64,000 bases of DNA from a virus (Duplodnaviria > Heunggongvirae > Uroviricota > Caudoviricetes). The position numbers and the translations under genes are program-made. The stretch lies in the IMG/VR virus record IMGVR_UViG_2851938318_000001; one strand, 5' to 3'. The notes under the pieces are model-generated. The model made no database searches. It was not told the origin of the DNA and worked only from the letters and a program-made list of their open reading frames with translations. Below, in pieces: positions 1,102-41,089 of this stretch; positions within the stretch are counted from its first letter, which is position 1; each line of letters opens with the position of its first letter.

Positions 1102-1155
1102 TGAACCGCCCCGGAAATCCTGGAGACTAAACTCCCTGAGAAAGAGGTAAACAGG

Positions 1156-1482
1156 ATGACTAAAAATACTCGTTTTTCCCCCGAAGTCCGTCAGCGGGCG
1201 ATTCGTATGGTTCTGGAAAGTCAGGATGAATATGACTCACAGTGGGCGGCAATTTGTTCCATTGCCCCAAAGATTGGCTGTACGCCGGAGACTCTGCGTG
1301 TCTGGGTTCGCCAGCATGAGCGGGATACCGGGGGCGGTGATGGTGGGCTCACCAGCGCTGAACGTCAGCGTCTGAAAGAGCTGGAACGTGAAAATCGTGA
1401 ACTGCGCCGCAGTAACGATATCCTTCGCCAGGCTTCCGCTTATTTTGCGAAGGCGGAGTTCGACCGCCTCTGGAAAAAATGA
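1156..1482 (+). CDS. IS629 transposase OrfA (HTH)
   Basis: 108-aa [18 protein letters not shown]..., identical in all six copies. Confidence 0.85.
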
Positions 1483-2369
1483 TGCCACTGCTGGATAAGC
1501 TGCGTGAGCAGTACGGGGTCGGACCGGTATGCAGCGAACTGCATATTGCCCCGTCAACGTATTACCATTGTCAGCAACAGCGACATCATCCGGATAAACG
1601 CAGTGCCCGTGCGCAGCACGACGACTGGCTGAAGAGAGAGATACAGCGCGTATACGATGAAAATCATCAGGTGTACGGTGTGCGTAAAGTCTGGCGTCAG
1701 TTGTTACGGGAAGGAATCAGGGTGGCCAGATGTACAGTGGCACGTCTCATGGCGGTTATGGGACTTGCCGGTGTTCTCCGGGGTAAAAAGGTCCGTACGA
1801 CCATCAGCCGGAAAGCCGTTGCCGCAGGCGACCGCGTAAACCGTCAGTTCGTGGCAGAACGACCTGACCAGCTGTGGGTGGCTGATTTTACTTACGTCAG
1901 CACATGGCAGGGCTTCGTCTATGTGGCGTTTATCATTGATGTGTTTGCCGGATACATCGTGGGGTGGCGGGTCTCATCGTCTATGGAAACGACATTCGTG
2001 CTGGATGCGCTGGAGCAGGCGTTGTGGGCCCGTCGTCCGTCTGGCACCATCCATCACAGCGATAAAGGCTCTCAGTATGTGTCACTGGCCTATACGGAGC
2101 GACTAAAAGAAGCCGGATTACTGGCATCAACAGGGAGTACAGGCGACTCGTATGACAACGCGATGGCTGAGAGCATCAATGGTCTTTACAAAGCGGAGGT
2201 AATACACCGTAAGAGCTGGAAAAACCGTGCAGAAGTGGAACTGGCCACACTAACGTGGGTGGACTGGTATAACAATCGACGATTGCTGGGAAGGCTGGGC
2301 CATACTCCTCCGGCAGAAGCAGAAAAAGCTTATTATGCTTCCATCGGAAACGATGATCTGGCAGCCTGA
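1479..2369 (+). CDS. IS629 transposase OrfB (DDE domain; normally expressed as OrfAB by -1 frameshift)
   Basis: 296-aa ORF overlapping orfA end at A-run (ggaaaaaatgatg). Confidence 0.85.
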
Positions 2370-2411
2370 GTTCACAGATAAAACACTCTCCAGGAAACCC
2401 GGGGCGGTTCA

Positions 2412-2661: not shown

Positions 2662-2715
2662 TGAACCGCCCCGGAAATCCTGGAGACTAAACTCCCTGAG
2701 AAAGAGGTAAACAGG

Positions 2716-3042
2716 ATGACTAAAAATACTCGTTTTTCCCCCGAAGTCCGTCAGCGGGCGATTCGTATGGTTCTGGAAAGTCAGGATGAATATGACTCAC
2801 AGTGGGCGGCAATTTGTTCCATTGCCCCAAAGATTGGCTGTACGCCGGAGACTCTGCGTGTCTGGGTTCGCCAGCATGAGCGGGATACCGGGGGCGGTGA
2901 TGGTGGGCTCACCAGCGCTGAACGTCAGCGTCTGAAAGAGCTGGAACGTGAAAATCGTGAACTGCGCCGCAGTAACGATATCCTTCGCCAGGCTTCCGCT
3001 TATTTTGCGAAGGCGGAGTTCGACCGCCTCTGGAAAAAATGA
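2716..3042 (+). CDS. IS629 transposase OrfA
   Basis: Identical 108-aa translation. Confidence 0.85.
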
Positions 3043-3929
3043 TGCCACTGCTGGATAAGCTGCGTGAGCAGTACGGGGTCGGACCGGTATGCAGCGAACT
3101 GCATATTGCCCCGTCAACGTATTACCATTGTCAGCAACAGCGACATCATCCGGATAAACGCAGTGCCCGTGCGCAGCACGACGACTGGCTGAAGAGAGAG
3201 ATACAGCGCGTATACGATGAAAATCATCAGGTGTACGGTGTGCGTAAAGTCTGGCGTCAGTTGTTACGGGAAGGAATCAGGGTGGCCAGATGTACAGTGG
3301 CACGTCTCATGGCGGTTATGGGACTTGCCGGTGTTCTCCGGGGTAAAAAGGTCCGTACGACCATCAGCCGGAAAGCCGTTGCCGCAGGCGACCGCGTAAA
3401 CCGTCAGTTCGTGGCAGAACGACCTGACCAGCTGTGGGTGGCTGATTTTACTTACGTCAGCACATGGCAGGGCTTCGTCTATGTGGCGTTTATCATTGAT
3501 GTGTTTGCCGGATACATCGTGGGGTGGCGGGTCTCATCGTCTATGGAAACGACATTCGTGCTGGATGCGCTGGAGCAGGCGTTGTGGGCCCGTCGTCCGT
3601 CTGGCACCATCCATCACAGCGATAAAGGCTCTCAGTATGTGTCACTGGCCTATACGGAGCGACTAAAAGAAGCCGGATTACTGGCATCAACAGGGAGTAC
3701 AGGCGACTCGTATGACAACGCGATGGCTGAGAGCATCAATGGTCTTTACAAAGCGGAGGTAATACACCGTAAGAGCTGGAAAAACCGTGCAGAAGTGGAA
3801 CTGGCCACACTAACGTGGGTGGACTGGTATAACAATCGACGATTGCTGGGAAGGCTGGGCCATACTCCTCCGGCAGAAGCAGAAAAAGCTTATTATGCTT
3901 CCATCGGAAACGATGATCTGGCAGCCTGA
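3039..3929 (+). CDS. IS629 transposase OrfB
   Basis: Identical 296-aa translation. Confidence 0.85.
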
Positions 3930-3971
3930 GTTCACAGATAAAACACTCTCCAGGAAACCCGGGGCGGTTCA

Positions 3972-6909: not shown

Positions 6910-7620
6910 TTACTCTTCTACTGACTCGGTGGGATTGTCTTTTGATCTCCGGTCGTCGATTGCCTGTAAAGCCGCAATGATTTCAGCTAGTGGCTTCTCC
7001 CGATACATCTCGACGATCTGTGATTTGGTGTATTTCTTGTCACCAATTTCTACGCGCCCGCTGGCGTTCTTTGGCAGGTATCCTTCATCCAGCATGTACT
7101 CGACGAGCGATTCGATAACGTCGAGGCCACGAGTAGGATCGAAGTAGAATTTCCAGGTGCACTTGCCATACGGTGGTGCAACTTTGTTTTTGATGCACTC
7201 TGCGCCTACGTCCTGACCGATCTTCTCTTTACCATCCTTCATCACCGATGCACCAAGACGGATACGTACAGAAGCGTAGAACTTCGGTGAATCTCCACCT
7301 GGCGACGTAGTAGGGTCGCCAAACATTACACCGATTTTTGTGCGAACCTGATTCAAGAAGATGATGCAGGCGTTGTATTTGCGTGCCCACAAAGCCAGAG
7401 TAGGGAAGTTCGCACTCGTCGCACGAGCCAGTGCCGTATTGTCGTTCATGTTTAGCTGATCTTTGTCTTTGGCAGTGCCTTCAGCCATCTTTTCGAACTT
7501 CTCGGCTTTGGAGTTCGGAACCATAGACGCAAGAGAGTCAGCCACGATACAGATAGGTGCTGATTCGGGGATAAGCTCTTCATCACGAACCAATTTAAGT
7601 ATTGTGCCGATCAACTCTAC
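6910..7620 (-). pseudogene. RecA-like recombinase, C-terminal fragment (interrupted by IS629 copy 3)
   Basis: Translation VELIGTILK...CIVADSLASM...NACIIFLNQVRTKIGVMFGDPTTSPGG...KFYASVRIRL matches RecA core motifs; ORF runs to the IS boundary. Confidence 0.75.
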
Positions 7621-7674
7621 TGAACCGCCCCGGAAATCCTGGAGACTAAACTCCCTGAGAAAGAGGTAAACAGG

Positions 7675-8001
7675 ATGACTAAAAATACTCGTTTTTCCCC
7701 CGAAGTCCGTCAGCGGGCGATTCGTATGGTTCTGGAAAGTCAGGATGAATATGACTCACAGTGGGCGGCAATTTGTTCCATTGCCCCAAAGATTGGCTGT
7801 ACGCCGGAGACTCTGCGTGTCTGGGTTCGCCAGCATGAGCGGGATACCGGGGGCGGTGATGGTGGGCTCACCAGCGCTGAACGTCAGCGTCTGAAAGAGC
7901 TGGAACGTGAAAATCGTGAACTGCGCCGCAGTAACGATATCCTTCGCCAGGCTTCCGCTTATTTTGCGAAGGCGGAGTTCGACCGCCTCTGGAAAAAATG
8001 A
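7675..8001 (+). CDS. IS629 transposase OrfA
   Basis: Identical 108-aa translation. Confidence 0.85.
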
Positions 8002-8888
8002 TGCCACTGCTGGATAAGCTGCGTGAGCAGTACGGGGTCGGACCGGTATGCAGCGAACTGCATATTGCCCCGTCAACGTATTACCATTGTCAGCAACAGC
8101 GACATCATCCGGATAAACGCAGTGCCCGTGCGCAGCACGACGACTGGCTGAAGAGAGAGATACAGCGCGTATACGATGAAAATCATCAGGTGTACGGTGT
8201 GCGTAAAGTCTGGCGTCAGTTGTTACGGGAAGGAATCAGGGTGGCCAGATGTACAGTGGCACGTCTCATGGCGGTTATGGGACTTGCCGGTGTTCTCCGG
8301 GGTAAAAAGGTCCGTACGACCATCAGCCGGAAAGCCGTTGCCGCAGGCGACCGCGTAAACCGTCAGTTCGTGGCAGAACGACCTGACCAGCTGTGGGTGG
8401 CTGATTTTACTTACGTCAGCACATGGCAGGGCTTCGTCTATGTGGCGTTTATCATTGATGTGTTTGCCGGATACATCGTGGGGTGGCGGGTCTCATCGTC
8501 TATGGAAACGACATTCGTGCTGGATGCGCTGGAGCAGGCGTTGTGGGCCCGTCGTCCGTCTGGCACCATCCATCACAGCGATAAAGGCTCTCAGTATGTG
8601 TCACTGGCCTATACGGAGCGACTAAAAGAAGCCGGATTACTGGCATCAACAGGGAGTACAGGCGACTCGTATGACAACGCGATGGCTGAGAGCATCAATG
8701 GTCTTTACAAAGCGGAGGTAATACACCGTAAGAGCTGGAAAAACCGTGCAGAAGTGGAACTGGCCACACTAACGTGGGTGGACTGGTATAACAATCGACG
8801 ATTGCTGGGAAGGCTGGGCCATACTCCTCCGGCAGAAGCAGAAAAAGCTTATTATGCTTCCATCGGAAACGATGATCTGGCAGCCTGA
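7998..8888 (+). CDS. IS629 transposase OrfB
   Basis: Identical 296-aa translation. Confidence 0.85.
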
Positions 8889-8930
8889 GTTCACAGATAA
8901 AACACTCTCCAGGAAACCCGGGGCGGTTCA

Positions 8931-11900
8931 ACTGATGGTTCGAACTGACTTCTCACTTGGGGAGTCGGCTCTAAAAGCAGAAAACGCGGTGAAGATTGCC
9001 AGAGAAGCTGGCTACACCGCTGTAATTTCAGCAGATAGCATGAATATTGCGAGCGTTATTCCACTACAACGTGCCGCTGGTGACGACATGGCGGTTATTT
9101 GTGGTGTGAAACTAAACATTGTTGATGATCCCACATACGAGCACCGGGCTAAACTTGCTAAAGAATCTATGAGATGTATGGAATCATTAGAGCGGGGACG
9201 TAACTACTCGTTTACCGCTCTAATTAAAAATGAGCAAGGATATCGCGACATCTGCGAACTAATGACGGCGGCCAACACACGAGAACAGTTCTACTTTGTA
9301 CCGCGTCTCTCGCTCGAACAGTTGGTTTCTACATATGCCAAAGGCAACATCATCCTGCTTACTTCCGACATCGGTAGCGTGTTCCAACGCAACGATTTTG
9401 CAAAAATCATAAGCACACTGATTACAGCGGGTGGAAAAGACAACTTCTATAGTGTGGTTTATCCGCACCCTACCCCATTCTACGACCAGATTAACGTCCG
9501 GGCGATGAAAGTCGCCAGCGCATTGAAAATAGAGCCAGTGGCGTTCTATCCCGCTTATTACGAATCGATCGACGATGCAGACATTAAAGACATTGCGCAC
9601 ATGGTTACGAACAACATCAAAATCGACCAGCCGCATCGTCTGCGTATCCCCCACCAGCGAGATAACGCCGTCAATGGTCGCCGCCATCTCCTTGAGGCGC
9701 TTAAAGCCTTCTCCGTTCGCATGGATGTGCCGGTAACAGCTGCAATGGCCTCAACAACGCAGGATACCATTATCGATGCCTGCACATGGCGCTGGCATGA
9801 ATTGCCGCCAGCACTGCCAAAGATGGCAGACGACGAGCCTGCAACGCTTATGAAACTGGCTGTTGCAGGGCTGCGTAAACGTCTTACCACAAAAGAGTTT
9901 GGCTACACACCACCTGCTTCTGAGAACAGGGTTTATGTTGAGCGGCTAAAGTACGAAATGGACACGCTGACTCGCCTGGGATTTTGTGGTTACTTCCTGA
10001 TGGTACGCGATCTGATGAATCATAGTCGTGAAACTGGCATTCCCGTTGGGCCTGGTCGTGGTTCCTCTGCCGGTTCTCTGGTGGCGTGGTGCATAGGCAT
10101 AACCAACGTCGACCCAATCCGTCACGGTCTTCTGTTTGAGCGTTTCATCAACCCTGAGCGTCTCGACTTGCCGGATGCGGACTTGGACTTCAGCCAGGCA
10201 CGTCGCCATGAGGTGATCGAGTATCTGAATGAACGCTACGGCGAAGATTACGTTGCGGGTATTCCGAACTTCACCTACCTGGGCGCAGCCTCTGCACTAC
10301 GTGATACCGCTCGTATTTATGGTGTGGAGTCCGCAGATATGGCGGTATCAAAAGAACTGAAGAACGTCGAGGATGATAGCCTTCCATTGGAAGAGCTGCG
10401 CGAACAACTGGCAAGTCTCGACAAATACGCAACAAAATATCCTGATGCATTCAATGCAGCCTGCAAGTTACAAAGCCTTATGCGTGGCTTTGGTAGACAT
10501 GCGGCAGGGATGATCGTAGCAGGTGTTCCTCTGACAGAACGTACACCGGTTGAGCGCCGTGGTGACGCGCGTTGTATCGCATTTGACAAGCGTTACTGCG
10601 AGGCTATGGGCCTAATTAAGCTGGACGTGCTTGGCCTGGCAACTCTCGATTTGCTCGATAGTGCAAAACGCTACATAAAAGAGAACACAGGTGAAGATAT
10701 CAATCTTGATGCCATTTCTCTTGAAGATCGCAAGGTGCTGGATGGTTTTGCTGCTGGGTACACTCAAGGTGTTTTCCAGCTTGAATCAGGCCCAATGCGC
10801 AAGCTGCTTAAAGATTTAGGTGGTGGAATTGAGCCAATGAGCTTTAAAACGGTCGTCGCTACAACTGCGCTCTTCCGGCCGGGGCCAATTCAATCAGGCA
10901 TGTTGGATGACTATGTTTCTGTCGCCAAAGGCTTTATGACGCCGGAATCATTACACCCCGTTCTTGATGAACTTACCGCGGAAACAAATGGCGTGATTCT
11001 CTATCAGGAACAGACGATGAACGCGACTCGATTGCTTGCCGGCTTCACAATGGCTGAAGCTGACGCTGTGCGTTCCGCAATCGGTAAGAAGAACATGGAA
11101 AAAATGAAGAGCATGGGCGAGAAGTTTATCGTTCAGGCTCAAGCTGGCTGGATAGACGTTGAGCTGGAAGATGGCACTACACAGCGCATTCACCGTGCGG
11201 AACATTTTAAATGCGAAGACGGAACTCTGAAAACTGTCGAAGAGGCACTTGAGCACGGCGCAAAACTACCTATAAACGCAGTACGCGTTACAGCGTCACA
11301 TCCAGGGCTATCAGAGATGAAAGCGAAGGAGATCTGGACCGCATTTGAGAAAAACGGAGCCTATCAGTTCAATAAATCACACTCCGTTGCTTATTCTTTA
11401 ATCAGTTATCAGTCTATGTGGCTAAAGACGCACTACCCTGCTGAGTTCTTCGCAGCTGCGCTCACCATTCTGGGCGAGGATAAGCATCAGGGGCTGGTGA
11501 AGGATGCGCTGACCTATGGCATTCGCGTATTGCCACCAGACGTTAATGTGTCATCTAACCGAATTGAGATCCGCACACTCGAAGACGGCAGTCAGGCACT
11601 GTATGCGCCATTCTCTGCTGTGAAAGGCTGTTCTGAAAATGGTTGTCAGGCAATTATGCGTGCGCGTGAGAAAGTTGGTGGCAAATTCGAGTCAGTGGCA
11701 CAATTCGATGAAGCGGTCGAGAAGCGTGCATGTAACAGTCGTGTACGCGAGTCGCTTCATAAAGTAGGGGCTTTTGCGTCAATTGAGCCAGGCAGTCTGC
11801 CAGCAACTGATCCTGAACGACTGCGCGACCAGGCTGAGCTGATGGGCAATCTCATCATTGACGCTGTTAAAGCATCACGTCCGTTCGAAATGAATCCTAA

Positions 11901-12441
11901 GCGTTCTGCCGAAATCAACGTACTCATGACACGTATGGCGGCTGAAATGGGCTTGGGTGAGGAGTTGATACGCCCGACTATTGGTATTAAACCCAAAATC
12001 ATGATCATTCTGGACAATGCGAACGGCAATGACGCTCGTACCGGCTACTTCATGGAGAACGGATACGACGACTTTAAGGCAAAACTACTGACAGTTGGAG
12101 ATCTGCGCATGGGCGATCTTTATGTCACGGGTGTTTGTAAGAAGGTTAAGGACAAAGAGAAAGACTATACCAAAGACGAGATAGGCCAGTTCACAGACTT
12201 TATGCGGGAAGAAATTAATCTTGTACGACCAACCTACATTTTGACGTGTGGTAGTCGTTCAACCGCACTATTTAACAATAAGAGTAAACCATCAGATCTG
12301 ATTGGTCGTAAGGAGTACTTCCCAGAGCTTGATGCAACCGTCTTCTACGGATTTAACCCGAATATCCTGTACTTCCGACCGGAAGAAGGAGAGCGACTGG
12401 AGGCCATTCTGGCTGATATCGCGGAGACAATAAATAAGTAA
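8931..12441 (+). CDS. dnaE: DNA polymerase III alpha subunit (DnaE-like), separated from its native start codon by IS629
   Basis: PHP-like N-terminus and Pol III alpha signature GPGRGSSAGSLVAWCIGITNVDPIRHGLLFERFINPERLDLPDADLDF; ORF-track start at 8854 is IS-derived, first in-frame ATG after the IS at 8935. Confidence 0.8.
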
Positions 12442-12446
12442 TAAAG

Positions 12447-12470
12447 AAAACCCGCCTGTTGGCGGGTTTA
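12447..12470. terminator. Bidirectional rho-independent terminator
   Basis: cccgcc-tgtt-ggcggg stem with A-run before and T-run after. Confidence 0.5.
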
Positions 12471-12744
12471 TAAAGAATTATGGCGCTTGTTGAGGAAGTC
12501 ACTCCTCTTACGCACTTTGTTTTGCCATGCCGGCAGTTAGCTTCTGCCTTTGACTATTCATGCGGCAACCCCGCATTTCGCCACAATGGGCAATTCACTT
12601 TTATGGAATAAACTGGCCGTTGTGTCGATTTAATTAGCATGGCCTTACCATGCTAATTTATTCAACTTGTACAATCCTACAAATCTATCCACTCAGGCTT
12701 ACACCGTCTTCGTTATTGTAGAAATGAGGATCATCAGCGTTGAA

Positions 12745-12960
12745 TCAGCTTAGAGCAACGACATTTGCTGCTGCTGGGCCTTTAGCCCCATTCTCGATAG
12801 AGAATTCGACCTGCTGGCCTTCTTCCAAAGTGCGGAAATTATTACTCTGAATTGCCGAAAAATGTACAAAAACATCTTTACTGCCATCAGCAGGAGAAAT
12901 AAAGCCAAAGCCTTTATCAGAGTTAAACCATTTTACTAAACCAGTCATTTTATTAGACAT
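12745..12960 (-). CDS. Cold-shock protein, CspA family
   Basis: [23 protein letters not shown]...VFVHFSAIQ matches the CSD RNP motifs; ORF-track ORF extends upstream, true start taken at MSNKMTG. Confidence 0.8.
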
Positions 12961-13289
12961 AGATATTACCTTCTTAATTTTGTGAGCCACATAGTGCGGC
13001 GAGAATTTGATCTGTATAGATTGGGACTTACTTAGGCACTTAAGGAGGAGACTCACGAAGAAGGGAAATCAGAAGATAACACTGAACTGAGACTGCTTTA
13101 CTAAAACTGCTTACATAAGGTCTGTCTTGCAAACCAACGATGCTATTAACGCATACCCCTTCTTTTCATGCAACCTTTATTTTTCAAAGATAACTAATTT
13201 TTGTCACCATTGGTTTAGTAAACGTTAACGAACCAGACGATGCCAGACACCTTTACAGAGAACAGATGCCCGCCAATTGGCGGGCATCA

Positions 13290-13853
13290 TTATGCACATT
13301 TCGCAATATCTTTGCGGCGTTTAATCAGTTTCTCCGCAATTTGCTCTATTTCGTTGAAATCTTTCGAGACGCTGTTTCGAAGCGCCAGATTCCATTTACT
13401 CAAAGTTCGGGCATTTTGGACAATTTGATCGCCCTCTTTAAGTCGTCCGTTATTCATGAGCCATTCAGCCACATCAGCCCAATCCCAGAGAGGAGACTGG
13501 CCTTTTATGCGTTGTACAGGGCAAGGGAAGTCGCCGCTTCCGCGCTTACCGTCTTTGAGCAACGCCACTGCCTGGCGAGACAGGTCTGTCAGTTCCGCGA
13601 TATCGCTTAAGCCCACAAGAGCCGAGTCGACGGATTCAACAATTGCACCGATACCGGCTGATTCAATATTGTCGACCGCAGATGCGATAGCTGCATCAAG
13701 TGATTGTGCTTCGCGGTCAAATTCTACATAGACGGAGTTTCCATATGCGCAAATTAGCGCATCGTCACAGCCGTTTTGGTACAGCGCGTCTTCCAGTCCT
13801 TCCGTCTCATACGATACGCCTGAGAGCGTCAGAGTGAAGTTATAAAGCGCCAT
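13290..13853 (-). CDS. Putative DNA-binding protein with C-terminal HTH (possible HicB-like antitoxin)
   Basis: HTH-like segment LSDIAELTDLSRQAVALLKDG; second gene of an operon behind a palindromic operator/promoter. Confidence 0.4.
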   Translation of the reverse strand: MALYNFTLTLSGVSYETEGLEDALYQNGCDDALICAYGNSVYVEFDREAQSLDAAIASAVDNIESAGIGAIVESVDSALVGLSDIAELTDLSRQAVALLKDGKRGSGDFPCPVQRIKGQSPLWDWADVAEWLMNNGRLKEGDQIVQNARTLSKWNLALRNSVSKDFNEIEQIAEKLIKRRKDIAKCA

Positions 13854-13913
13854 AGTTTTCCTTTGAAGATAGTTGGACAGTTTCTGCAAAAGGCGGCTAA
13901 TGCCGCCTTGAAA

Positions 13914-14138
13914 TCATTTACAACGATCAACCATTCGTTTGATCTGTTTGGCATGGTTTTCGGGATTACCCGGAGTCGACCATACGCTCATTTGGTGAGT
14001 TTTGTGTTCACCTTCTGGATTACCGCATCGCAGTCTGCAAAAACAATGTGCAGCACCACCAGCTGCTACCCAGATCCAGCCTTTACTTAATGCATAGTCA
14101 ATGGCTGCTTGAATATGCTTATTCGGATGTTGCTTCAT
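13914..14138 (-). CDS. Small protein (74 aa), possible toxin partner
   Basis: First gene behind a sigma70-like promoter overlapped by a palindrome; GGAGG RBS; size and gene order fit HicA-first operons but sequence is not diagnostic. Confidence 0.35.
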   Translation of the reverse strand: MKQHPNKHIQAAIDYALSKGWIWVAAGGAAHCFCRLRCGNPEGEHKTHQMSVWSTPGNPENHAKQIKRMVDRCK

Positions 14139-14149
14139 TCGCCTCCGAT

Positions 14150-14190
14150 AATAGTATTCTATTCACAGTGTTGACATCTGTCAACGGCGA
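14150..14190 (-). promoter_or_regulatory. Sigma70-like promoter with overlapping palindromic operator
   Basis: Minus-strand TTGACA (14179-14184), 17-bp spacer, TAGAAT (14156-14161); palindrome gttgaca-tc-tgtcaac at 14170-14185. Confidence 0.45.
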
Positions 14191-14350
14191 CTGAATTTCA
14201 TCCGTTCATGCCACACCCCCATCCATCTCATGTATGTGACCTAAAGATGGTCAGCACAGCTTACCAAAATAAGACAACTAATTATCTTCGGTGATCTCAA
14301 TATTTTCCCCTGAACAAAGTTGACATGACGCCATAAACCCGTTCTCTGTT

Positions 14351-14359
14351 TGATATAAT
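14351..14359 (+). promoter_or_regulatory. Extended -10 promoter element (TGaTATAAT) upstream of the UvsY-like gene
   Basis: tgatataat about 34 bp upstream of the GTG start at 14393; no good -35. Confidence 0.3.
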
Positions 14360-14392
14360 TGATACAGATTTTATAAGTAGGAACCTATTAGA

Positions 14393-14824
14393 GTGAACAC
14401 TGATATTTTTTCTAAAATCATGGCCGATCTGGAGTTCGACCGCGACAACCTTGAGGAAGTATGGCGTAAACAGCCACGGCTTTTAATGGAGTATGGGTCA
14501 AAACTAGCGCAGGCAGATCGAGATGTCGCAGAGGCAAAACTTAACCTTGAAGCTGTTGAAGCAAAGCTATACGACACAGAGCGTAAGAACTTGAGTATGA
14601 ACGGCATTAAGTTCAACGAGTCTGTACTGGACGCTAAGGTTAAAACAAACCCACAGTATCTGTCTAAACGGCAGAAGTTGGATGAAGCACGGCACATCGC
14701 AGACATATACAAACATGCTGTCGCCGCCTTTTCGCATCGCCGAGACATGATCGTTCAGGCGTCAAAGATGGCCATCGTTGAATTAGAGCGATTAGGCTCT
14801 GAACGCTTTATTACTCCCCGTTGA
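14393..14824 (+). CDS. Putative recombination mediator (UvsY-like), hypothetical
   Basis: 143-aa helical protein starting at GTG; sits directly upstream of the gp32-like SSB and RecA-like genes as in T4-type recombination modules; weak similarity only. Confidence 0.4.
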   Translation: MNTDIFSKIMADLEFDRDNLEEVWRKQPRLLMEYGSKLAQADRDVAEAKLNLEAVEAKLYDTERKNLSMNGIKFNESVLDAKVKTNPQYLSKRQKLDEARHIADIYKHAVAAFSHRRDMIVQASKMAIVELERLGSERFITPR

Positions 14825-14941
14825 TTTTTGATAGATAATAAGTAAGTACTGATCTATCATTTAACAGCTCGAAAGAGCCACGAATGAACGAAAGCCCAAC
14901 GCGCATAGCGCCATCGGCCAAATCACAACAAGGAGAAACAC

Positions 14942-15982
14942 ATGTCTAAGACATTACTTGATTTGCTTAACAAAACTCGTGAAGACATTGCCGCCAAACG
15001 TGGCAACAACGTTGATCTGACTCGCTTAAAAGACGGCGTCAACTATATCCGCATCTTCCCGAATAAAGACGACCCAAACGGTAAGTTCTTCCAGACTTTC
15101 GGTATGCACTACGTTAAGTATCAGAACGAGGAAGGTAAAGAAGCAACCAACGCTTATATTTGTGAGCAACATACTCACGGTCGCGCTTGTCAGCTATGCG
15201 AAATGGTTATGGAAGGTCGCGCTCGTCACAAGGGTAACAAAGCAATGGAAGAACGCATCGGTCAAATGCGTGCCACTCCTCGCTACCTGGTCAACGGCAT
15301 TCTTTCTGCTCGTGAGGATTTCGCAGATGCTGAGAAATGCCAGTTAATCGAGCTGCCGTCTACTGTATTCGATGATATCTGCAAAGCAATCACCGAAGAC
15401 ATCGCTGATGATATCGGCAATCCACTGAGCAAAGAGGAAGGCTACGCATTCCTGATTAAACGTACTGGCTCTGGTCGCGATACCAAATATGACGTCTCGC
15501 CTAAGCGTAAAGTCTACAAAGGCGATATCGAAGATAAATTCTGGAACACCCAGCATGATCTGATCGCATACGCAAATCAGGCTGATGAAACTCGTCTTCT
15601 GTCGACAGTTCGCACTATGGGTCGTCTGATTGGCATCGCTGCACCAACTGCCGCAGCATCTGCACCAGCATCTGCACCAGCAATTTCCTCAACCGCGAAA
15701 ACATCGGCTGCGGCACTACCTGGATTTGGCTCTGTCACTGGTCATACAGAAGGAGCGACGGCTGTAGCAACCGCGCACACACCGGCTTCTGAACCAACCA
15801 GTCTGGTTGATGAAGAAATCCTCCGTGCCGTTGAAACTGAATTTAAACCAGAAGCAAGTTCCGCTGCCGTTGCCGTATCAGTCAAAGAGTCTGAAGCAGT
15901 CGCAGCGACATCTGTAGCAGCCGCATCTGCGACGGAAGATGAAGGTCTGGATGACCTACTGAGAGAGCTGGACTCTCTGTAA
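14942..15982 (+). CDS. Single-stranded DNA-binding protein, T4 gp32-like
   Basis: IRIFPNKDDPNGKFFQTFGMHY core, Cys/His cluster C-x3-H-x-H...C-x2-C, acidic C-terminal tail DEGLDDLLRELDSL; AAGGAG RBS. Confidence 0.6.
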   Translation: MSKTLLDLLNKTREDIAAKRGNNVDLTRLKDGVNYIRIFPNKDDPNGKFFQTFGMHYVKYQNEEGKEATNAYICEQHTHGRACQLCEMVMEGRARHKGNKAMEERIGQMRATPRYLVNGILSAREDFADAEKCQLIELPSTVFDDICKAITEDIADDIGNPLSKEEGYAFLIKRTGSGRDTKYDVSPKRKVYKGDIEDKFWNTQHDLIAYANQADETRLLSTVRTMGRLIGIAAPTAAASAPASAPAISSTAKTSAAALPGFGSVTGHTEGATAVATAHTPASEPTSLVDEEILRAVETEFKPEASSAAVAVSVKESEAVAATSVAAASATEDEGLDDLLRELDSL

Positions 15983-15998
15983 TCCCATTACGTGACCA

Positions 15999-16027
15999 GT
16001 AAGGCGTCTACGGACGCCTTACTTTTT
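15999..16027 (+). terminator. Rho-independent terminator after the SSB gene
   Basis: taaggcgtc-tacg-gacgcctta stem followed by cttttt. Confidence 0.6.
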
Positions 16028-16042
16028 GGAAGGAATGTACCG

Positions 16043-16987
16043 GTGAATTATCTCTTCGTAGATGGCAATAGCCTGGGTTATTACCACCAACAATCTGACA
16101 AATTGCACAACGGCGAAATGGAAGTACAGGCTGCTTTCGGCTTTGTTAAGAACGTCCGTCGTTATGCCTCCATCCTCCATGCCCGACCTATGATTCTTTG
16201 GGATGGATTTAGTGACAAGCGTCGCGACTTTTACCCGGACTACAAAGCAAATCGCGACGACGATCCTGATATGAAAAAGATGAAGGAAGGCTTTGCTATC
16301 CAGAAGCCATACATCCTCAAAATGATGACCGCGCTTGGAGTTACCCAACTCATTGCAAAAGATGCAGAAGCGGATGATCTGGCCGGGCTGCTGGTATCCC
16401 GCATGGCACCGCAGCCAACCGTTGAACACATCTATCTGTTAACAGGCGATAGCGACTGGCTTCAGTTAGTTCGTGAAAACGTAAGCTGGGTAAGCCTGCG
16501 TGAAGACGCCAAAAACAAGCAGGTTAATTTTGAGCAATTTGCGGAGCTGACAGGATTCGCCACGCCTCGCGCATTTTTGGAAGCAAAAGCATTACAAGGC
16601 GATAACTCGGACAACATTAGCGGTGTTGGTGGCATTGGTGCTGGCGGTGCGAAAGAGCTGCTGCATGAATGGGGAAGTGTCGCAACGATGGTACGCGGCA
16701 TCAACGACGGCTCAATCGTGGTTAATAAAGGGCGTCATAAGACCGCCTTCAACAAACTAGCGAAGAATGCCTTCAACGAGAAAACAGGCTGTCGAATGCT
16801 CGAAGCGTTCAAGAGAAACATCACGCTAATGAACCTGATTGAGACGAAGTTTCCGCCTACCGAAATCGAAACAATCAAAGGCAATCGTGACGTGAAAGCA
16901 TTCGAGCAACTGTGCTACGAGCTGAATTTCCGTTCGTTCCTTGAAGACCTTGAAGTGTTTGTTCTTCCATTCGAAAGGTATTGCTAA
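16043..16987 (+). CDS. 5'-3' exonuclease / flap endonuclease (PIN/FEN family)
   Basis: LFVDGNSLGYYH, GDSDWLQLV and GDNSDNISGVGGIG motifs; start placed at GTG 16043 after the terminator, with GGAAGG RBS. Confidence 0.7.
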   Translation: MNYLFVDGNSLGYYHQQSDKLHNGEMEVQAAFGFVKNVRRYASILHARPMILWDGFSDKRRDFYPDYKANRDDDPDMKKMKEGFAIQKPYILKMMTALGVTQLIAKDAEADDLAGLLVSRMAPQPTVEHIYLLTGDSDWLQLVRENVSWVSLREDAKNKQVNFEQFAELTGFATPRAFLEAKALQGDNSDNISGVGGIGAGGAKELLHEWGSVATMVRGINDGSIVVNKGRHKTAFNKLAKNAFNEKTGCRMLEAFKRNITLMNLIETKFPPTEIETIKGNRDVKAFEQLCYELNFRSFLEDLEVFVLPFERYC

Positions 16988-17253
16988 TGCTTAAATCGAT
17001 TATCAATGGCGCTACAACCACCCCTGCCCAACTGGCAAAAGAGATTGTCTTTTATCACGGTGAGTACGCTGTCATCGCACTGCCGTCAATTCTAGGCGCT
17101 GCCGGAATGAAAGCGACAGATCGCGAGTTTGGATTAGTCAGCGAGCAGGTCGTAAAAATCCTCGCTCGTGTATCCAGACTCCTTAACCACGATGCGATTG
17201 TATTCGATGAATCCGCCGCTTTAAAACGAATCAACGAAACAAAAGGAGCCTGA
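16981..17253 (+). CDS. Hypothetical protein (90 aa)
   Basis: ORF between exonuclease and recA-like fragment; no recognisable domain. Confidence 0.35.
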   Translation: MLMLKSIINGATTTPAQLAKEIVFYHGEYAVIALPSILGAAGMKATDREFGLVSEQVVKILARVSRLLNHDAIVFDESAALKRINETKGA

Positions 17254-17255
17254 TC

Positions 17256-17622
17256 ATGGCAAAAGGAAAATCCGCACTGGCACTTGCTCTGAAAAAGAAA
17301 ATCGGTAGCAACGACGAAATTCAGAAAGTAACTCATTGGATTGATACAGGCTTTCCACCGTTAAACAAAGCTATTTCTGGTCGTTACGATGGCGGCTTCC
17401 CATGTGGTCGTATCGTCGAAGTATTCGGTCCTCCAAGTGCAGGGAAAACGTTCCTTGCAACAGCAGCGATGATCTCCGCTCAAAAACAAGATGGTCTGGC
17501 GGTATTCCTCGATCATGAAAACAGTTTTGACGTTGGCCTGGCTGTCGCCAATGGCCTGAACGCAGATGAGGATGACGGTCAGTGGGTATACAAGCAGCCA
17601 GATACCTTCGAAGACTCTGTAG
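17256..17622 (+). pseudogene. RecA-like recombinase, N-terminal fragment (interrupted by IS629 copy 4)
   Basis: MAKGKS...GRIVEVFGPPSAGKT (Walker A)...QPDTFEDSV, ending at the IS boundary; joins in frame with 6910-7620. Confidence 0.75.
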
Positions 17623-17664
17623 TGAACCGCCCCGGGTTTCCTGGAGAGTGTTTTATCTGTGAAC

Positions 17665-18555
17665 TCAGGCTGCCAGATCATCGTTTCCGATGGAAGCATA
17701 ATAAGCTTTTTCTGCTTCTGCCGGAGGAGTATGGCCCAGCCTTCCCAGCAATCGTCGATTGTTATACCAGTCCACCCACGTTAGTGTGGCCAGTTCCACT
17801 TCTGCACGGTTTTTCCAGCTCTTACGGTGTATTACCTCCGCTTTGTAAAGACCATTGATGCTCTCAGCCATCGCGTTGTCATACGAGTCGCCTGTACTCC
17901 CTGTTGATGCCAGTAATCCGGCTTCTTTTAGTCGCTCCGTATAGGCCAGTGACACATACTGAGAGCCTTTATCGCTGTGATGGATGGTGCCAGACGGACG
18001 ACGGGCCCACAACGCCTGCTCCAGCGCATCCAGCACGAATGTCGTTTCCATAGACGATGAGACCCGCCACCCCACGATGTATCCGGCAAACACATCAATG
18101 ATAAACGCCACATAGACGAAGCCCTGCCATGTGCTGACGTAAGTAAAATCAGCCACCCACAGCTGGTCAGGTCGTTCTGCCACGAACTGACGGTTTACGC
18201 GGTCGCCTGCGGCAACGGCTTTCCGGCTGATGGTCGTACGGACCTTTTTACCCCGGAGAACACCGGCAAGTCCCATAACCGCCATGAGACGTGCCACTGT
18301 ACATCTGGCCACCCTGATTCCTTCCCGTAACAACTGACGCCAGACTTTACGCACACCGTACACCTGATGATTTTCATCGTATACGCGCTGTATCTCTCTC
18401 TTCAGCCAGTCGTCGTGCTGCGCACGGGCACTGCGTTTATCCGGATGATGTCGCTGTTGCTGACAATGGTAATACGTTGACGGGGCAATATGCAGTTCGC
18501 TGCATACCGGTCCGACCCCGTACTGCTCACGCAGCTTATCCAGCAGTGGCATCAT
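17665..18555 (-). CDS. IS629 transposase OrfB
   Basis: Identical 296-aa translation. Confidence 0.85.
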
Positions 18556-18878
18556 TTTTTCCAGAGGCGGTCGAACTCCGCCTTCGCAAAATAAGCGGAA
18601 GCCTGGCGAAGGATATCGTTACTGCGGCGCAGTTCACGATTTTCACGTTCCAGCTCTTTCAGACGCTGACGTTCAGCGCTGGTGAGCCCACCATCACCGC
18701 CCCCGGTATCCCGCTCATGCTGGCGAACCCAGACACGCAGAGTCTCCGGCGTACAGCCAATCTTTGGGGCAATGGAACAAATTGCCGCCCACTGTGAGTC
18801 ATATTCATCCTGACTTTCCAGAACCATACGAATCGCCCGCTGACGGACTTCGGGGGAAAAACGAGTATTTTTAGTCAT
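18552..18878 (-). CDS. IS629 transposase OrfA
   Basis: Identical 108-aa translation. Confidence 0.85.
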
Positions 18879-18932
18879 CCTGTTTACCTCTTTCTCAGGG
18901 AGTTTAGTCTCCAGGATTTCCGGGGCGGTTCA

Positions 18933-18943
18933 AGTGCCTTCAT
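18933..18943 (-). other. dnaE: Detached 5' end of dnaE (ATG AAG GCA CT) with its native RBS
   Basis: Minus-strand ccagaaaggtaaaaacac-ATGAAGGCACT abuts the IRL end of IS copy 4; continues as G ATG GTT CGA at 8931 after sharing the ACT duplication. Confidence 0.6.
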
Positions 18944-19122
18944 GTGTTTTTACCTTTCTGGTTTTTTGATTTTGTCATTGGGGAAGCCTACGAACTTCCC
19001 ATGCATCGAAATCGCAACTTCTTTTGCTGATTGGTGACAATCGGGCTTGTCTGGACACACCAGACAAGCCTTACCAGTTTCAGAAGCAGCGATAAGAGAG
19101 CCGAAACATCCTTTACGCACGA

Positions 19123-39458: not shown

Positions 39459-39633
39459 TGGAGAGTTCCCTTTGCGTATATAATTATCGTCTGAAACAAC
39501 TTGTTTTCTTATATGTGATATAGCCTAAATGCCTACGGCTGCGGTGTAAAGGTTAAATGGTAGGTTGTGATTAACAATTTGAACCGCCCCGGAAATCCTG
39601 GAGACTAAACTCCCTGAGAAAGAGGTAAACAGG

Positions 39634-39960
39634 ATGACTAAAAATACTCGTTTTTCCCCCGAAGTCCGTCAGCGGGCGATTCGTATGGTTCTGGAAAGTC
39701 AGGATGAATATGACTCACAGTGGGCGGCAATTTGTTCCATTGCCCCAAAGATTGGCTGTACGCCGGAGACTCTGCGTGTCTGGGTTCGCCAGCATGAGCG
39801 GGATACCGGGGGCGGTGATGGTGGGCTCACCAGCGCTGAACGTCAGCGTCTGAAAGAGCTGGAACGTGAAAATCGTGAACTGCGCCGCAGTAACGATATC
39901 CTTCGCCAGGCTTCCGCTTATTTTGCGAAGGCGGAGTTCGACCGCCTCTGGAAAAAATGA
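39634..39960 (+). CDS. IS629 transposase OrfA
   Basis: Identical 108-aa translation. Confidence 0.85.
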
Positions 39961-40847
39961 TGCCACTGCTGGATAAGCTGCGTGAGCAGTACGGGGTCGG
40001 ACCGGTATGCAGCGAACTGCATATTGCCCCGTCAACGTATTACCATTGTCAGCAACAGCGACATCATCCGGATAAACGCAGTGCCCGTGCGCAGCACGAC
40101 GACTGGCTGAAGAGAGAGATACAGCGCGTATACGATGAAAATCATCAGGTGTACGGTGTGCGTAAAGTCTGGCGTCAGTTGTTACGGGAAGGAATCAGGG
40201 TGGCCAGATGTACAGTGGCACGTCTCATGGCGGTTATGGGACTTGCCGGTGTTCTCCGGGGTAAAAAGGTCCGTACGACCATCAGCCGGAAAGCCGTTGC
40301 CGCAGGCGACCGCGTAAACCGTCAGTTCGTGGCAGAACGACCTGACCAGCTGTGGGTGGCTGATTTTACTTACGTCAGCACATGGCAGGGCTTCGTCTAT
40401 GTGGCGTTTATCATTGATGTGTTTGCCGGATACATCGTGGGGTGGCGGGTCTCATCGTCTATGGAAACGACATTCGTGCTGGATGCGCTGGAGCAGGCGT
40501 TGTGGGCCCGTCGTCCGTCTGGCACCATCCATCACAGCGATAAAGGCTCTCAGTATGTGTCACTGGCCTATACGGAGCGACTAAAAGAAGCCGGATTACT
40601 GGCATCAACAGGGAGTACAGGCGACTCGTATGACAACGCGATGGCTGAGAGCATCAATGGTCTTTACAAAGCGGAGGTAATACACCGTAAGAGCTGGAAA
40701 AACCGTGCAGAAGTGGAACTGGCCACACTAACGTGGGTGGACTGGTATAACAATCGACGATTGCTGGGAAGGCTGGGCCATACTCCTCCGGCAGAAGCAG
40801 AAAAAGCTTATTATGCTTCCATCGGAAACGATGATCTGGCAGCCTGA
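39957..40847 (+). CDS. IS629 transposase OrfB
   Basis: Identical 296-aa translation. Confidence 0.85.
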
Positions 40848-41089
40848 GTTCACAGATAAAACACTCTCCAGGAAACCCGGGGCGGTTCAATTGGCAATCA
40901 TAGCTTGTATTTGTCTGTTGAAAAAAGTAACAATGACCTCTATATTACAAGTACGGTGATATGCCGTACACAATTTGATAATGCACACGTAATGGGCTAT
41001 AGCCTTTTAAAGTAATTTTTGAGTCGAAAACTCAGTTTGAACAGAGGAGATTGATGGCCTTCCTACATCACGGCCATCAGGAGGAATAC

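What the first reader, a model, noticed from the sequence alone, without database searches (positions are those of the whole stretch)
7621..18932. Inversion between two inverted IS629 copies splits a recA-like gene and detaches dnaE from its start codon
Copies 3 and 4 each lack matching flanking duplications, but their flanks cross-match: CTAC at the copy-3 left end and copy-4 right end, ACT at the copy-3 right end and copy-4 left end. The recA-like N-terminus (17256-17622, plus strand) and C-terminus (6910-7620, minus strand) join in frame into a 357-aa protein (...QPDTFEDSVELIGTILK...) if segment 8931-17622 is re-inverted and the IS removed. Likewise the dnaE start (minus strand 18943-18933, ATGAAGGCACT with its RBS) joins G ATG GTT at 8931. 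Two original insertions followed by homologous recombination explain all four junctions.
Basis: seen in the sequence. Interest (0 to 1): 0.7.

Follow-up and report, generated by a model that had tools for sequence, protein, structure and literature searches.

The report
IS629-bounded inversion in a phage-plasmid
Two identical copies of the insertion sequence IS629 landed in the recA-like and dnaE genes of an SSU5-type phage-plasmid of E. coli and then recombined, flipping the 8.7 kb between them; this is a real but ordinary rearrangement.

Summary

- **Repeats.** The window holds six 100 % identical 1310-bp IS629/IS1203 copies. Four have their own 3-bp target duplications. The copies at 7621-8930 (+) and 17623-18932 (-) do not, but their flanks cross-match (CTAC and ACT).
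- **Reconstruction.** Removing both copies, re-inverting 8931-17622 and dropping one copy of each duplication gives a 357-aa RecA-family protein and a 1172-aa DnaE. The result aligns in one 16.3-kb block to IS-free relatives.
- **Relatives.** One relative is 100 % identical over the flipped segment. 190 complete E. coli genomes, and phages SSU5 and Cyrano, have the collinear order.
- **Source.** The window is plasmid CP028433.1. Its sister plasmid pRM9131-1 carries the same two insertions recombined with other IS partners (one deletion, one other inversion). IS-by-IS homologous recombination is therefore recurrent in this lineage.
- **Nuance.** The insertions broke the genes; the inversion only moved the pieces and changed their promoter context. 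dnaE lost just four codons and keeps in-frame start codons.
- **Limits.** Assembly error and one-step transposition cannot be formally excluded.

Novelty is none and interest is low.

The parts
6910..7620 (-). C-terminal fragment of the RecA-family gene (residues 123-357, with stop codon). It ends at the IS copy 3 left end.
   Evidence: translation; the rejoined protein matches Pfam RecA PF00154, E 2e-42; a 204-aa gene with a RecA_N hit is called here.
7617..7620 (+). CTAC, one copy of the 4-bp target duplication of the recA insertion. Its partner is GTAG at 17619-17622.
   Evidence: IS-free relatives have a single CTAC at the empty site.
7621..8930 (+). IS629/IS1203 copy 3: orfA 7675-8001, orfB 7998-8888, ALIL frameshift pseudoknot 7956-8072. 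The transposase reads towards dnaE.
   Evidence: HTH_Tnp_1, rve; RF01497, 121.5 bits. Homologous copies are annotated 'IS3-like element IS1203 family transposase'.
8931..17622 (.). The 8692-bp inverted segment. It carries the dnaE body, cspG with its thermoregulator, an HTH regulator, a small hypothetical gene, a UvsY-like gene, a gp32-like SSB, a 5'-3' exonuclease, an 88-aa hypothetical gene and the recA N-terminal fragment.
   Evidence: it aligns to the intact relative on the strand opposite to both flanks; 8692/8692 identical to the IS-free relative L011, which is collinear.
8931..8933 (+). ACT, one copy of the 3-bp target duplication of the dnaE insertion. Its partner is AGT at 18933-18935.
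8935..12441 (+). dnaE body from native Met5 to the stop codon (1168 aa). In-frame ATGs inside the IS at 8854 and 8872 give 1195-aa and 1189-aa fusion ORFs.
   Evidence: PHP, DNA_pol3_alpha, finger and HHH_6 domains; the 8872-equivalent start is annotated as an intact dnaE in both sister plasmids.
12720..13138 (-). cspA-type thermoregulator 5' UTR overlapping the start of the cold-shock gene (12745-12960). It lies inside the flipped segment.
   Evidence: RF01766, 185.7 bits. (cspG / CSD).
14942..15982 (+). gp32-like single-strand DNA-binding protein (346 aa), inside the flipped segment.
   Evidence: PF08804, E 2e-66.
16043..16987 (+). 5'-3' exonuclease. It is intact here and interrupted by another IS629 copy in pRM9131-1.
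17256..17622 (+). N-terminal fragment of the RecA-family gene (residues 1-122, including Walker A at 58-65). It reads on into the IS as a 200-aa fusion ORF that ends at 17858.
17623..18932 (-). IS629/IS1203 copy 4, inverted relative to copy 3. ALIL pseudoknot at 18481-18597.
18933..18943 (-). Orphaned first 11 nt of dnaE (ATGAAGGCACT), with its ribosome-binding site (GAAAGG) upstream at about 18950-18956.
   Evidence: Identical to the dnaE start of the intact relatives.
19123..20358 (-). AAA_5 ATPase gene, the native upstream neighbour of dnaE. It shows which side is ancestral.

Best explanation
The window is the first 64 kb of a 120-kb SSU5-type phage-plasmid of E. coli (CP028433.1) that has undergone a burst of IS629/IS1203 transposition.

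- **First insertion.** One copy went into codon 122/123 of the plasmid's RecA-family recombinase, duplicating CTAC.
- **Second insertion.** Another copy, in the opposite orientation, went into codon 3/4 of its dnaE, duplicating ACT.
- **Recombination.** Homologous recombination between these two identical 1310-bp inverted repeats then flipped the 8692 bp between them. Host RecA is the presumed catalyst; this is inferred.
- **Consequence for the junctions.** The crossover lay inside the IS, so all four IS-end/flank junctions were kept but re-paired. This is why each copy now carries one half of each duplication.
- **Consequence for recA.** It is cut between Walker A and the Walker-B-like IVADS motif and is almost certainly dead.
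- **Consequence for dnaE.** It lost only MKAL together with its ribosome-binding site and upstream operon. It keeps native Met5 and two in-frame ATGs in the IS right end, downstream of and co-oriented with the transposase genes. It may therefore still be made at some level (inferred).

What is shown: the anatomy, the ancestral order and the recurrence of IS-by-IS recombination in the lineage. What is inferred: the order of events, RecA dependence and the expression consequences.
For: - **IS copies and duplications.** Six identical copies; four have their own duplications, and copies 3 and 4 have reciprocal CTAC/ACT flanks.
- **Reconstruction.** It gives intact 357-aa RecA and 1172-aa DnaE. It aligns in one 16,339-bp HSP to NZ_CP020118.1 with single-copy target sites.
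- **IS-free relative.** L011 is 100 % identical over the segment and collinear.
- **Other relatives.** 190 complete E. coli genomes and phages SSU5 and Cyrano have the order CobT-AAA-dnaE...RecA-SPFH.
- **Sister plasmid pRM9131-1.** It is identical apart from one mismatch over all of the window it shares and has the same IRR|recA-N, IRR|dnaE and dnaE-start|IRL junctions. There the recA IS is fused with the IS next to repA (flanks AAG / CTAC), which deletes recA-C to DUF7238. The dnaE IS is cross-matched with an IS in an SbcC-like gene (AAC / ACT), a second inversion.
- **IS type.** orfA/orfB domains and the ALIL frameshift pseudoknot. Duplications of 3 to 4 bp are reported for IS629 (PMC3271280).
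- **Draft contigs.** Contigs from three more isolates stop exactly at these IS boundaries.
Against: - All IS copies are identical, so no crossover point can be seen.
- The same flank pattern would result from a one-step intramolecular transposition with inversion.
- No plasmid with both insertions still un-inverted and with both native outer flanks was found in RefSeq complete E. coli genomes or PLSDB.
- The orientation rests on one assembly. It is not in the RefSeq or PLSDB copies searched, and its reads could not be inspected.
Confidence: 0.85

Rival explanations
1. One-step intramolecular transposition. A single resident IS629 (in recA or at dnaE) attacked the other site on the same plasmid in a replicative or IS-dimer mode. 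This created the second, inverted copy and flipped the intervening DNA in the same event.
For: By established knowledge of replicative elements such as IS26 and Tn3, the expected flank pattern is the same as the one seen: each copy carries one half of each duplication. Parsimony over the two sister plasmids does not separate the models. My count is three rearrangements in total under either ancestor.
Against: By established knowledge of IS911, IS2, IS3 and IS150, IS3-family elements move by copy-out/paste-in through a circular intermediate, which gives simple insertions. The other four copies here are simple insertions with their own duplications. In pRM9131-1 the deletion end-point coincides exactly with the recA insertion site of this window (R flank CTACAGAG). 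That is expected for recombination between two pre-existing copies and not for a fresh transposition.
Confidence: 0.08
2. Assembly artefact. The segment between two perfect 1.3-kb inverted repeats was placed in the wrong orientation by the assembler, and the real plasmid has the two insertions but no inversion.
For: Orientation between perfect inverted repeats cannot be read from the sequence itself. The source record CP028433.1 is absent from the RefSeq complete-genome copy and from PLSDB. Short-read drafts of the lineage break at every IS.
Against: The record is a closed 120,253-bp plasmid. Its sister record differs in content as well as order: it has one extra IS in the exonuclease gene, lacks the IS at 1102, and lacks the 3.6-kb recA-C-to-DUF7238 block. 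Its own hybrid IS flanks show that real IS-by-IS exchanges occur in this lineage. Reads longer than 1.3 kb resolve such repeats, but the sequencing platform is not known to me.
Confidence: 0.05
3. The segment is a programmed invertible switch or a composite transposon, not the product of accidental recombination.
For: The 8.7-kb module is bracketed by inverted IS copies with their right ends facing inward, the layout of a composite transposon. Flipping changes which promoters face dnaE and the genes downstream of recA.
Against: The boundaries are whole IS elements, with no short recombinase sites and no invertase gene at the ends. The nearest tyrosine recombinase gene is at 23506-24609. The outer flanks (CTAC ... 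AGT) are not a duplication. The cargo is native to exactly this place in 190 relatives. Neither orientation restores either gene.
Confidence: 0.02

Closest known systems
Inversions by homologous recombination between inverted IS copies or other inverted repeats in E. coli genomes and plasmids (for example the repeat-mediated inversions described in E. coli O157:H7, PMC7430833 and PMC8743559)
   Same: Identical inverted repeats sit at both break-points. The flanks are exchanged reciprocally. Collinearity with relatives returns after re-inversion in silico.
   Different: The published O157 examples read here are megabase chromosomal inversions between prophage repeats. This case is an 8.7-kb flip on a phage-plasmid between two IS629 copies, each sitting inside a gene.
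IS629 / IS1203 (IS3 family)
   Same: 1310 bp. orfA (HTH_Tnp_1) and orfB (rve) with the ALIL frameshift pseudoknot. Duplications of 3 to 4 bp. 99.5-99.8 % identical to copies annotated IS629 or IS1203.
   Different: Nothing of note. PGAP names it IS1203, and PMC3271280 treats IS1203 as an IS629 isoform.
SSU5-type phage-plasmids (Salmonella phage SSU5, Escherichia phage Cyrano, E. coli plasmids of about 110 kb)
   Same: A Rep3-type repA, the CobT-AAA-dnaE...UvsY-like-gp32-exonuclease-RecA-SPFH module and phage head and tail genes. 82 % nucleotide identity to SSU5 and 98 % to Cyrano over the segment.
   Different: This copy and its sister are riddled with IS629. recA, the dnaE start and the tail-tip gene J are interrupted, and the replication/recombination module is inverted.
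Inversions made by intramolecular replicative transposition (IS26, Tn3-type)
   Same: The target-duplication pattern is the same.
   Different: IS629 belongs to the IS3 family, which is not known to transpose that way. See the rival explanation.

Membership tests
IS629/IS1203 (IS3 family) | About 1310 bp with terminal inverted repeats starting TGAACCGCCCCGG | tested here: met
   1310 bp, with both ends reading TGAACCGCCCCGG(A/G).
IS629/IS1203 (IS3 family) | orfA (HTH) and orfB (DDE rve) joined by a programmed -1 frameshift with a pseudoknot | tested here: met
   (HTH_Tnp_1; rve, HTH_21, rve_3). (ALIL pseudoknot RF01497, 121.5 bits, in both copies). (PGAP: programmed frameshift).
IS629/IS1203 (IS3 family) | Target duplication of 3 to 4 bp | tested here: met
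   four copies with 3-bp duplications; the reconstructed duplications are 4 bp and 3 bp. The literature value is in PMC3271280.
IS629/IS1203 (IS3 family) | Near identity to named reference copies | tested here: met
   99.5-99.8 % over the full length to copies annotated IS1203 or 'transposase for IS629'. No ISfinder reference was available.
Inversion by homologous recombination between inverted IS copies | Identical IS copies in inverted orientation at exactly the two break-points | tested here: met
Inversion by homologous recombination between inverted IS copies | Neither copy has its own duplication and the flanks match reciprocally | tested here: met
   (CTAC and ACT). Chance is about 6e-5.
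Inversion by homologous recombination between inverted IS copies | Re-inversion and IS removal restore the gene order and the ORFs of IS-free relatives | tested here: met
Inversion by homologous recombination between inverted IS copies | Dependence on the host recombination system rather than on the transposase | not testable with these tools
   This needs a recA-deficient host or a transposase mutant.
SSU5-type phage-plasmid | Plasmid replication gene plus a full set of tailed-phage genes on one replicon of about 100-120 kb, syntenic with SSU5 | tested here: met
   (repA, ParB, terminase, portal, capsid, tape measure and tail genes in the sister plasmid, which matches the window over all it shares with one mismatch). 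(82 % identity and the same order as SSU5).
RecA family (the split gene) | RecA core domain with a Walker A P-loop | tested here: met
   (PF00154, E 2e-42, residues 27-281 of the rejoined protein). (GPPSAGKT at 58-65).
DnaE (Pol III alpha family) | PHP, polymerase core, finger and HhH domains in order | tested here: met
Site-specific invertible switch (Hin/Gin, shufflon type) | Short inverted recombination sites and a dedicated invertase at or in the segment | tested here: not met
   The break-points are whole IS elements. No recombinase gene lies in 7621-18932 other than the IS transposases.
Composite transposon insertion | Target duplication outside the two IS copies, and cargo foreign to the site | tested here: not met
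   The outer flanks CTAC / AGT do not match. The cargo is native here in 190 relatives.

The most novel reading that the evidence does not exclude
The IS629-bracketed replication/recombination module might flip back and forth at an appreciable rate in the cell population. That would toggle dnaE between read-through from the CobT-AAA operon and dependence on the IS promoter alone. It would also cut the SPFH-side genes off from the recombination operon. Together with the broken recA and tail-tip gene, this could be a selected step in turning a phage-plasmid into a quiet plasmid in cattle-associated E. coli, rather than neutral decay.
Probability: 0.05. Interest if true: 0.35.

Novelty: already known. 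Interest (0 to 1): 0.12.

Why it matters
It matters little beyond annotation.

- **Structure.** The odd 'half recA' and 'dnaE starting inside an IS' are explained as products of two IS629 insertions and a flip, and the ancestral structure of the plasmid is recovered.
- **Recurrence.** IS629 copies on this phage-plasmid lineage recombine repeatedly: one inversion here, and one deletion plus another inversion in the sister plasmid.
- **Dispensability (inferred, not shown).** The plasmid persists with its own RecA broken and its DnaE start displaced. This suggests these phage genes are not needed for plasmid maintenance.
- **Practical point.** It is a clean worked example of reading rearrangement history from target-site duplications.

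Tried and rejected
- **Looking for the window's arrangement or an un-inverted intermediate.** Searches of RefSeq complete E. coli genomes and PLSDB with a probe across recA-C|IS|dnaE and with window 1-25000 found neither. Only pRM9131-1 shares the IS|dnaE junction, and no record has the recA-C|IS junction.
- **Exact-protein look-up of the recA-N::IS fusion ORF.** Nothing is on record. Look-ups of the dnaE fusion ORF and the gp32 allele did work and identified the source record.
- **Rest of the source plasmid.** CP028433.1 is not in the annotated collections, so positions 64-120 kb could not be read. Whether it also carries the IS in the SbcC-like gene is only suggested by length arithmetic.
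- **Literature.** A search for strain RM9131 found no papers.
- **Promoter scan of the IS-dnaE junction, 8500-9100.** No sigma-70-like site was found. Continued dnaE expression therefore rests only on the in-frame start codons and on the published observation that genes downstream of an IS629 insertion were still transcribed (PMC7430833).
- **Extended repeat arm.** The 1339-nt arm 17595-18933 / 39579-40917 suggested extra homology beyond the IS. It is an artefact of gapless extension (15 of 28 matches).
- **Recurrent IS hits in dnaE or recA.** I checked whether other SSU5-type plasmids also have IS elements in these genes, which would hint at selection. The two examined have IS elements at the exonuclease 3' end and next to cspG instead.
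- **Rejected readings.** A native split arrangement, a composite transposon insertion and an invertase switch were rejected; see the rival explanations and membership tests.

Full report
**What is in the sequence**

The window holds six copies of a 1310-bp element: 1102-2411 (+), 2662-3971 (+), 7621-8930 (+), 17623-18932 (-), 39580-40889 (+) and 51531-52840 (-). All six are 100 % identical.

Each copy has an HTH_Tnp_1 orfA and an rve-type orfB. The two copies in the region scanned also have the ALIL frameshift pseudoknot. Copies elsewhere that are 99.5-99.8 % identical are annotated IS1203 or IS629. PMC3271280 treats IS1203 as an isoform of IS629 and reports duplications of 3 to 4 bp.

Four copies have their own 3-bp duplications (GTG, AAG, ATT, GTA). 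The copies at 7621 and 17623 do not. In IS orientation their flanks are ...CTAC / ACTGATGG and ...GGCACT / CTACAGAG. The left flank of one therefore equals the right flank of the other, in both directions. The chance of this is about 6e-5.

**Reconstruction**

I deleted both copies, re-inverted 8931-17622 and removed one CTAC and one ACT. Two continuous ORFs result.

- **RecA-family protein, 357 aa.** Pfam RecA gives E 2e-42. It is 99.4 % identical to the RecA of plasmid NZ_CP020118.1 and 94.7 % to SSU5 gp60.
- **DnaE, 1172 aa.** It has the same length and the same MKALMVRTDF start as in those relatives.

At the nucleotide level the reconstruction aligns to NZ_CP020118.1 as a single 16,339-bp block at 99.4 %, with one CTAC and one AGT at the two empty sites. 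The window itself aligns in three blocks, with the middle one reversed.

**What the element is**

The window is positions 1-64,000 of plasmid CP028433.1 (120,253 bp, assembly GCA_003288275.1). The first 22,441 bases of that record are identical to the window.

It is an SSU5-type phage-plasmid. Over the flipped segment it is 82 % identical to Salmonella phage SSU5 and 98 % to Escherichia phage Cyrano. Its sister plasmid carries repA, partition genes, and terminase, portal, capsid, tape-measure and tail genes.

In SSU5, in Cyrano and in 190 complete E. coli genomes the order is CobT, AAA ATPase, dnaE, cold-shock gene, regulator, UvsY-like, gp32-like SSB, 5'-3' exonuclease, small ORF, RecA, small ORF, SPFH protein. 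All but the three genes between dnaE and the UvsY-like gene (cold-shock gene, regulator and a small ORF) lie on one strand.

A draft contig of another isolate (L011) has no IS, is 8692/8692 identical over the flipped segment and is collinear. The split arrangement is therefore derived and recent.

**The sister plasmid shows the same insertions with different partners**

pRM9131-1 (CP028430.1) is identical to the window over all it shares, apart from one mismatch, but it is arranged differently. Its IS flanks are as follows.

| IS position in pRM9131-1 | Left flank | Right flank | Reading |
|---|---|---|---|
| 1349 | AAG (that of the window's copy 2) | CTACAGAG (the recA-N junction) | A deletion between those two direct copies, which removed recA-C to DUF7238 |
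| 12664 | AAC | ACTGATGG (dnaE body) | Cross-matches with the copy at 111615 |
| 111615 | GGCACT (dnaE start) | AAC | Cross-match shows a second inversion, between the dnaE IS and an IS in an SbcC-like gene |

So the recA and dnaE insertions pre-date both plasmids, and IS-by-IS exchange has happened at least three times in this small lineage.

Draft contigs from three more isolates begin at the dnaE-side boundary. One ends at the recA-side boundary. The other two end at the site of the pRM9131-1-specific IS in the exonuclease gene.

**Mechanism**

The best-supported history is two independent IS629 insertions in opposite orientation, followed by homologous recombination between the 1310-bp inverted repeats.

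- **Shown:** the break-points, the reciprocal duplications, the ancestral order, and independent hybrid-flank IS copies in the sister plasmid.
- **Inferred:** that the exchange was RecA-dependent recombination rather than a transposase-driven one-step inversion. The flank pattern cannot tell the two apart. The preference rests on the copy-out/paste-in mechanism established for IS3-family elements, and on the deletion end-point in pRM9131-1 coinciding exactly with a pre-existing insertion site.

An assembly error in orientation cannot be excluded from sequence alone. It is unlikely, because the two sister records differ in content as well as in order.

**Consequences**

The insertions, not the inversion, interrupted the genes. 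RecA is cut after residue 122, between Walker A (58-65) and the IVADS motif (146). Neither piece should work.

dnaE loses only MKAL with its ribosome-binding site. Native Met5 (8935) and two in-frame ATGs inside the IS right end (8854, 8872) remain, downstream of and co-oriented with the transposase genes. The annotation pipeline calls the 8872 form an intact dnaE. No promoter-like site was found at the junction. However, transcription downstream of an IS629 insertion has been observed elsewhere (PMC7430833).

What the inversion adds is a change of context. The dnaE body is no longer downstream of the CobT-AAA genes. The genes after recA (the 66-aa ORF, SPFH and DUF7238) no longer follow the UvsY-gp32-exonuclease operon.

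**Comparison and verdict**

This is a textbook IS-mediated inversion, involving a well-known IS on a well-known type of phage-plasmid. Every membership feature that could be tested was met for IS629/IS1203, for SSU5-type phage-plasmids and for recombination between inverted IS copies. The features of an invertase switch or a composite-transposon insertion were tested and not met.

Its interest score was too high. I found no published description of this plasmid pair, but nothing here is new in kind.

Noticed in passing
L007:12301-14640 (phage Cyrano) and L014:4325-6664; absent at window 17256-17622: Many relatives carry a ~422-aa intein with a LAGLIDADG homing endonuclease in the P-loop of this RecA (GPPSAGK|C...SHN|T), annotated as 'LAGLIDADG family homing endonuclease'. 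The window's recA has the intein-free allele.
   Followed up: partly
window 51531-52840: This IS629 copy (own duplication GTA) maps to the site where pRM9131-1 has its TipJ tail-tip gene cut in two. The element is therefore probably no longer able to make infectious particles.
   Followed up: partly
window 12720-13138 (-): There is a full-length match to the cspA thermoregulator RNA (RF01766, 185.7 bits), overlapping the start of a phage-plasmid-borne cold-shock gene annotated cspG.
   Followed up: no
window 1102-2411 and 2662-3971: Two direct IS629 copies lie only 250 bp apart just downstream of repA. The first is absent from the sister plasmid. The second is the partner used for the recA-C-to-DUF7238 deletion in pRM9131-1.
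   Followed up: yes
L003 (pRM9131-1) 16037-20180 and 13968-14651 / 112925-114166 of the record: In the sister plasmid the nrdA gene is split by an IS91-family element, and an SbcC-like AAA gene is split by IS629 with its halves about 98 kb apart. Length arithmetic suggests that the window's plasmid lacks the IS91 insertion.
   Followed up: partly
L003 24063-24539 and 40158-43449 (pRM9131-1; outside the window): The sister plasmid carries dfrA51 (trimethoprim-resistant DHFR), thymidylate synthase, nrdAB, metG, apbC and four tRNA genes. This cargo is typical of SSU5-type phage-plasmids.
   Followed up: no
L011:3982-7500: In the IS-free near-identical relative, no dnaE gene is listed in the collection's gene table, and RecA is called 15 codons shorter, although the DNA is identical to the window's segment. 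This is probably a gene-calling or record quirk.
   Followed up: no
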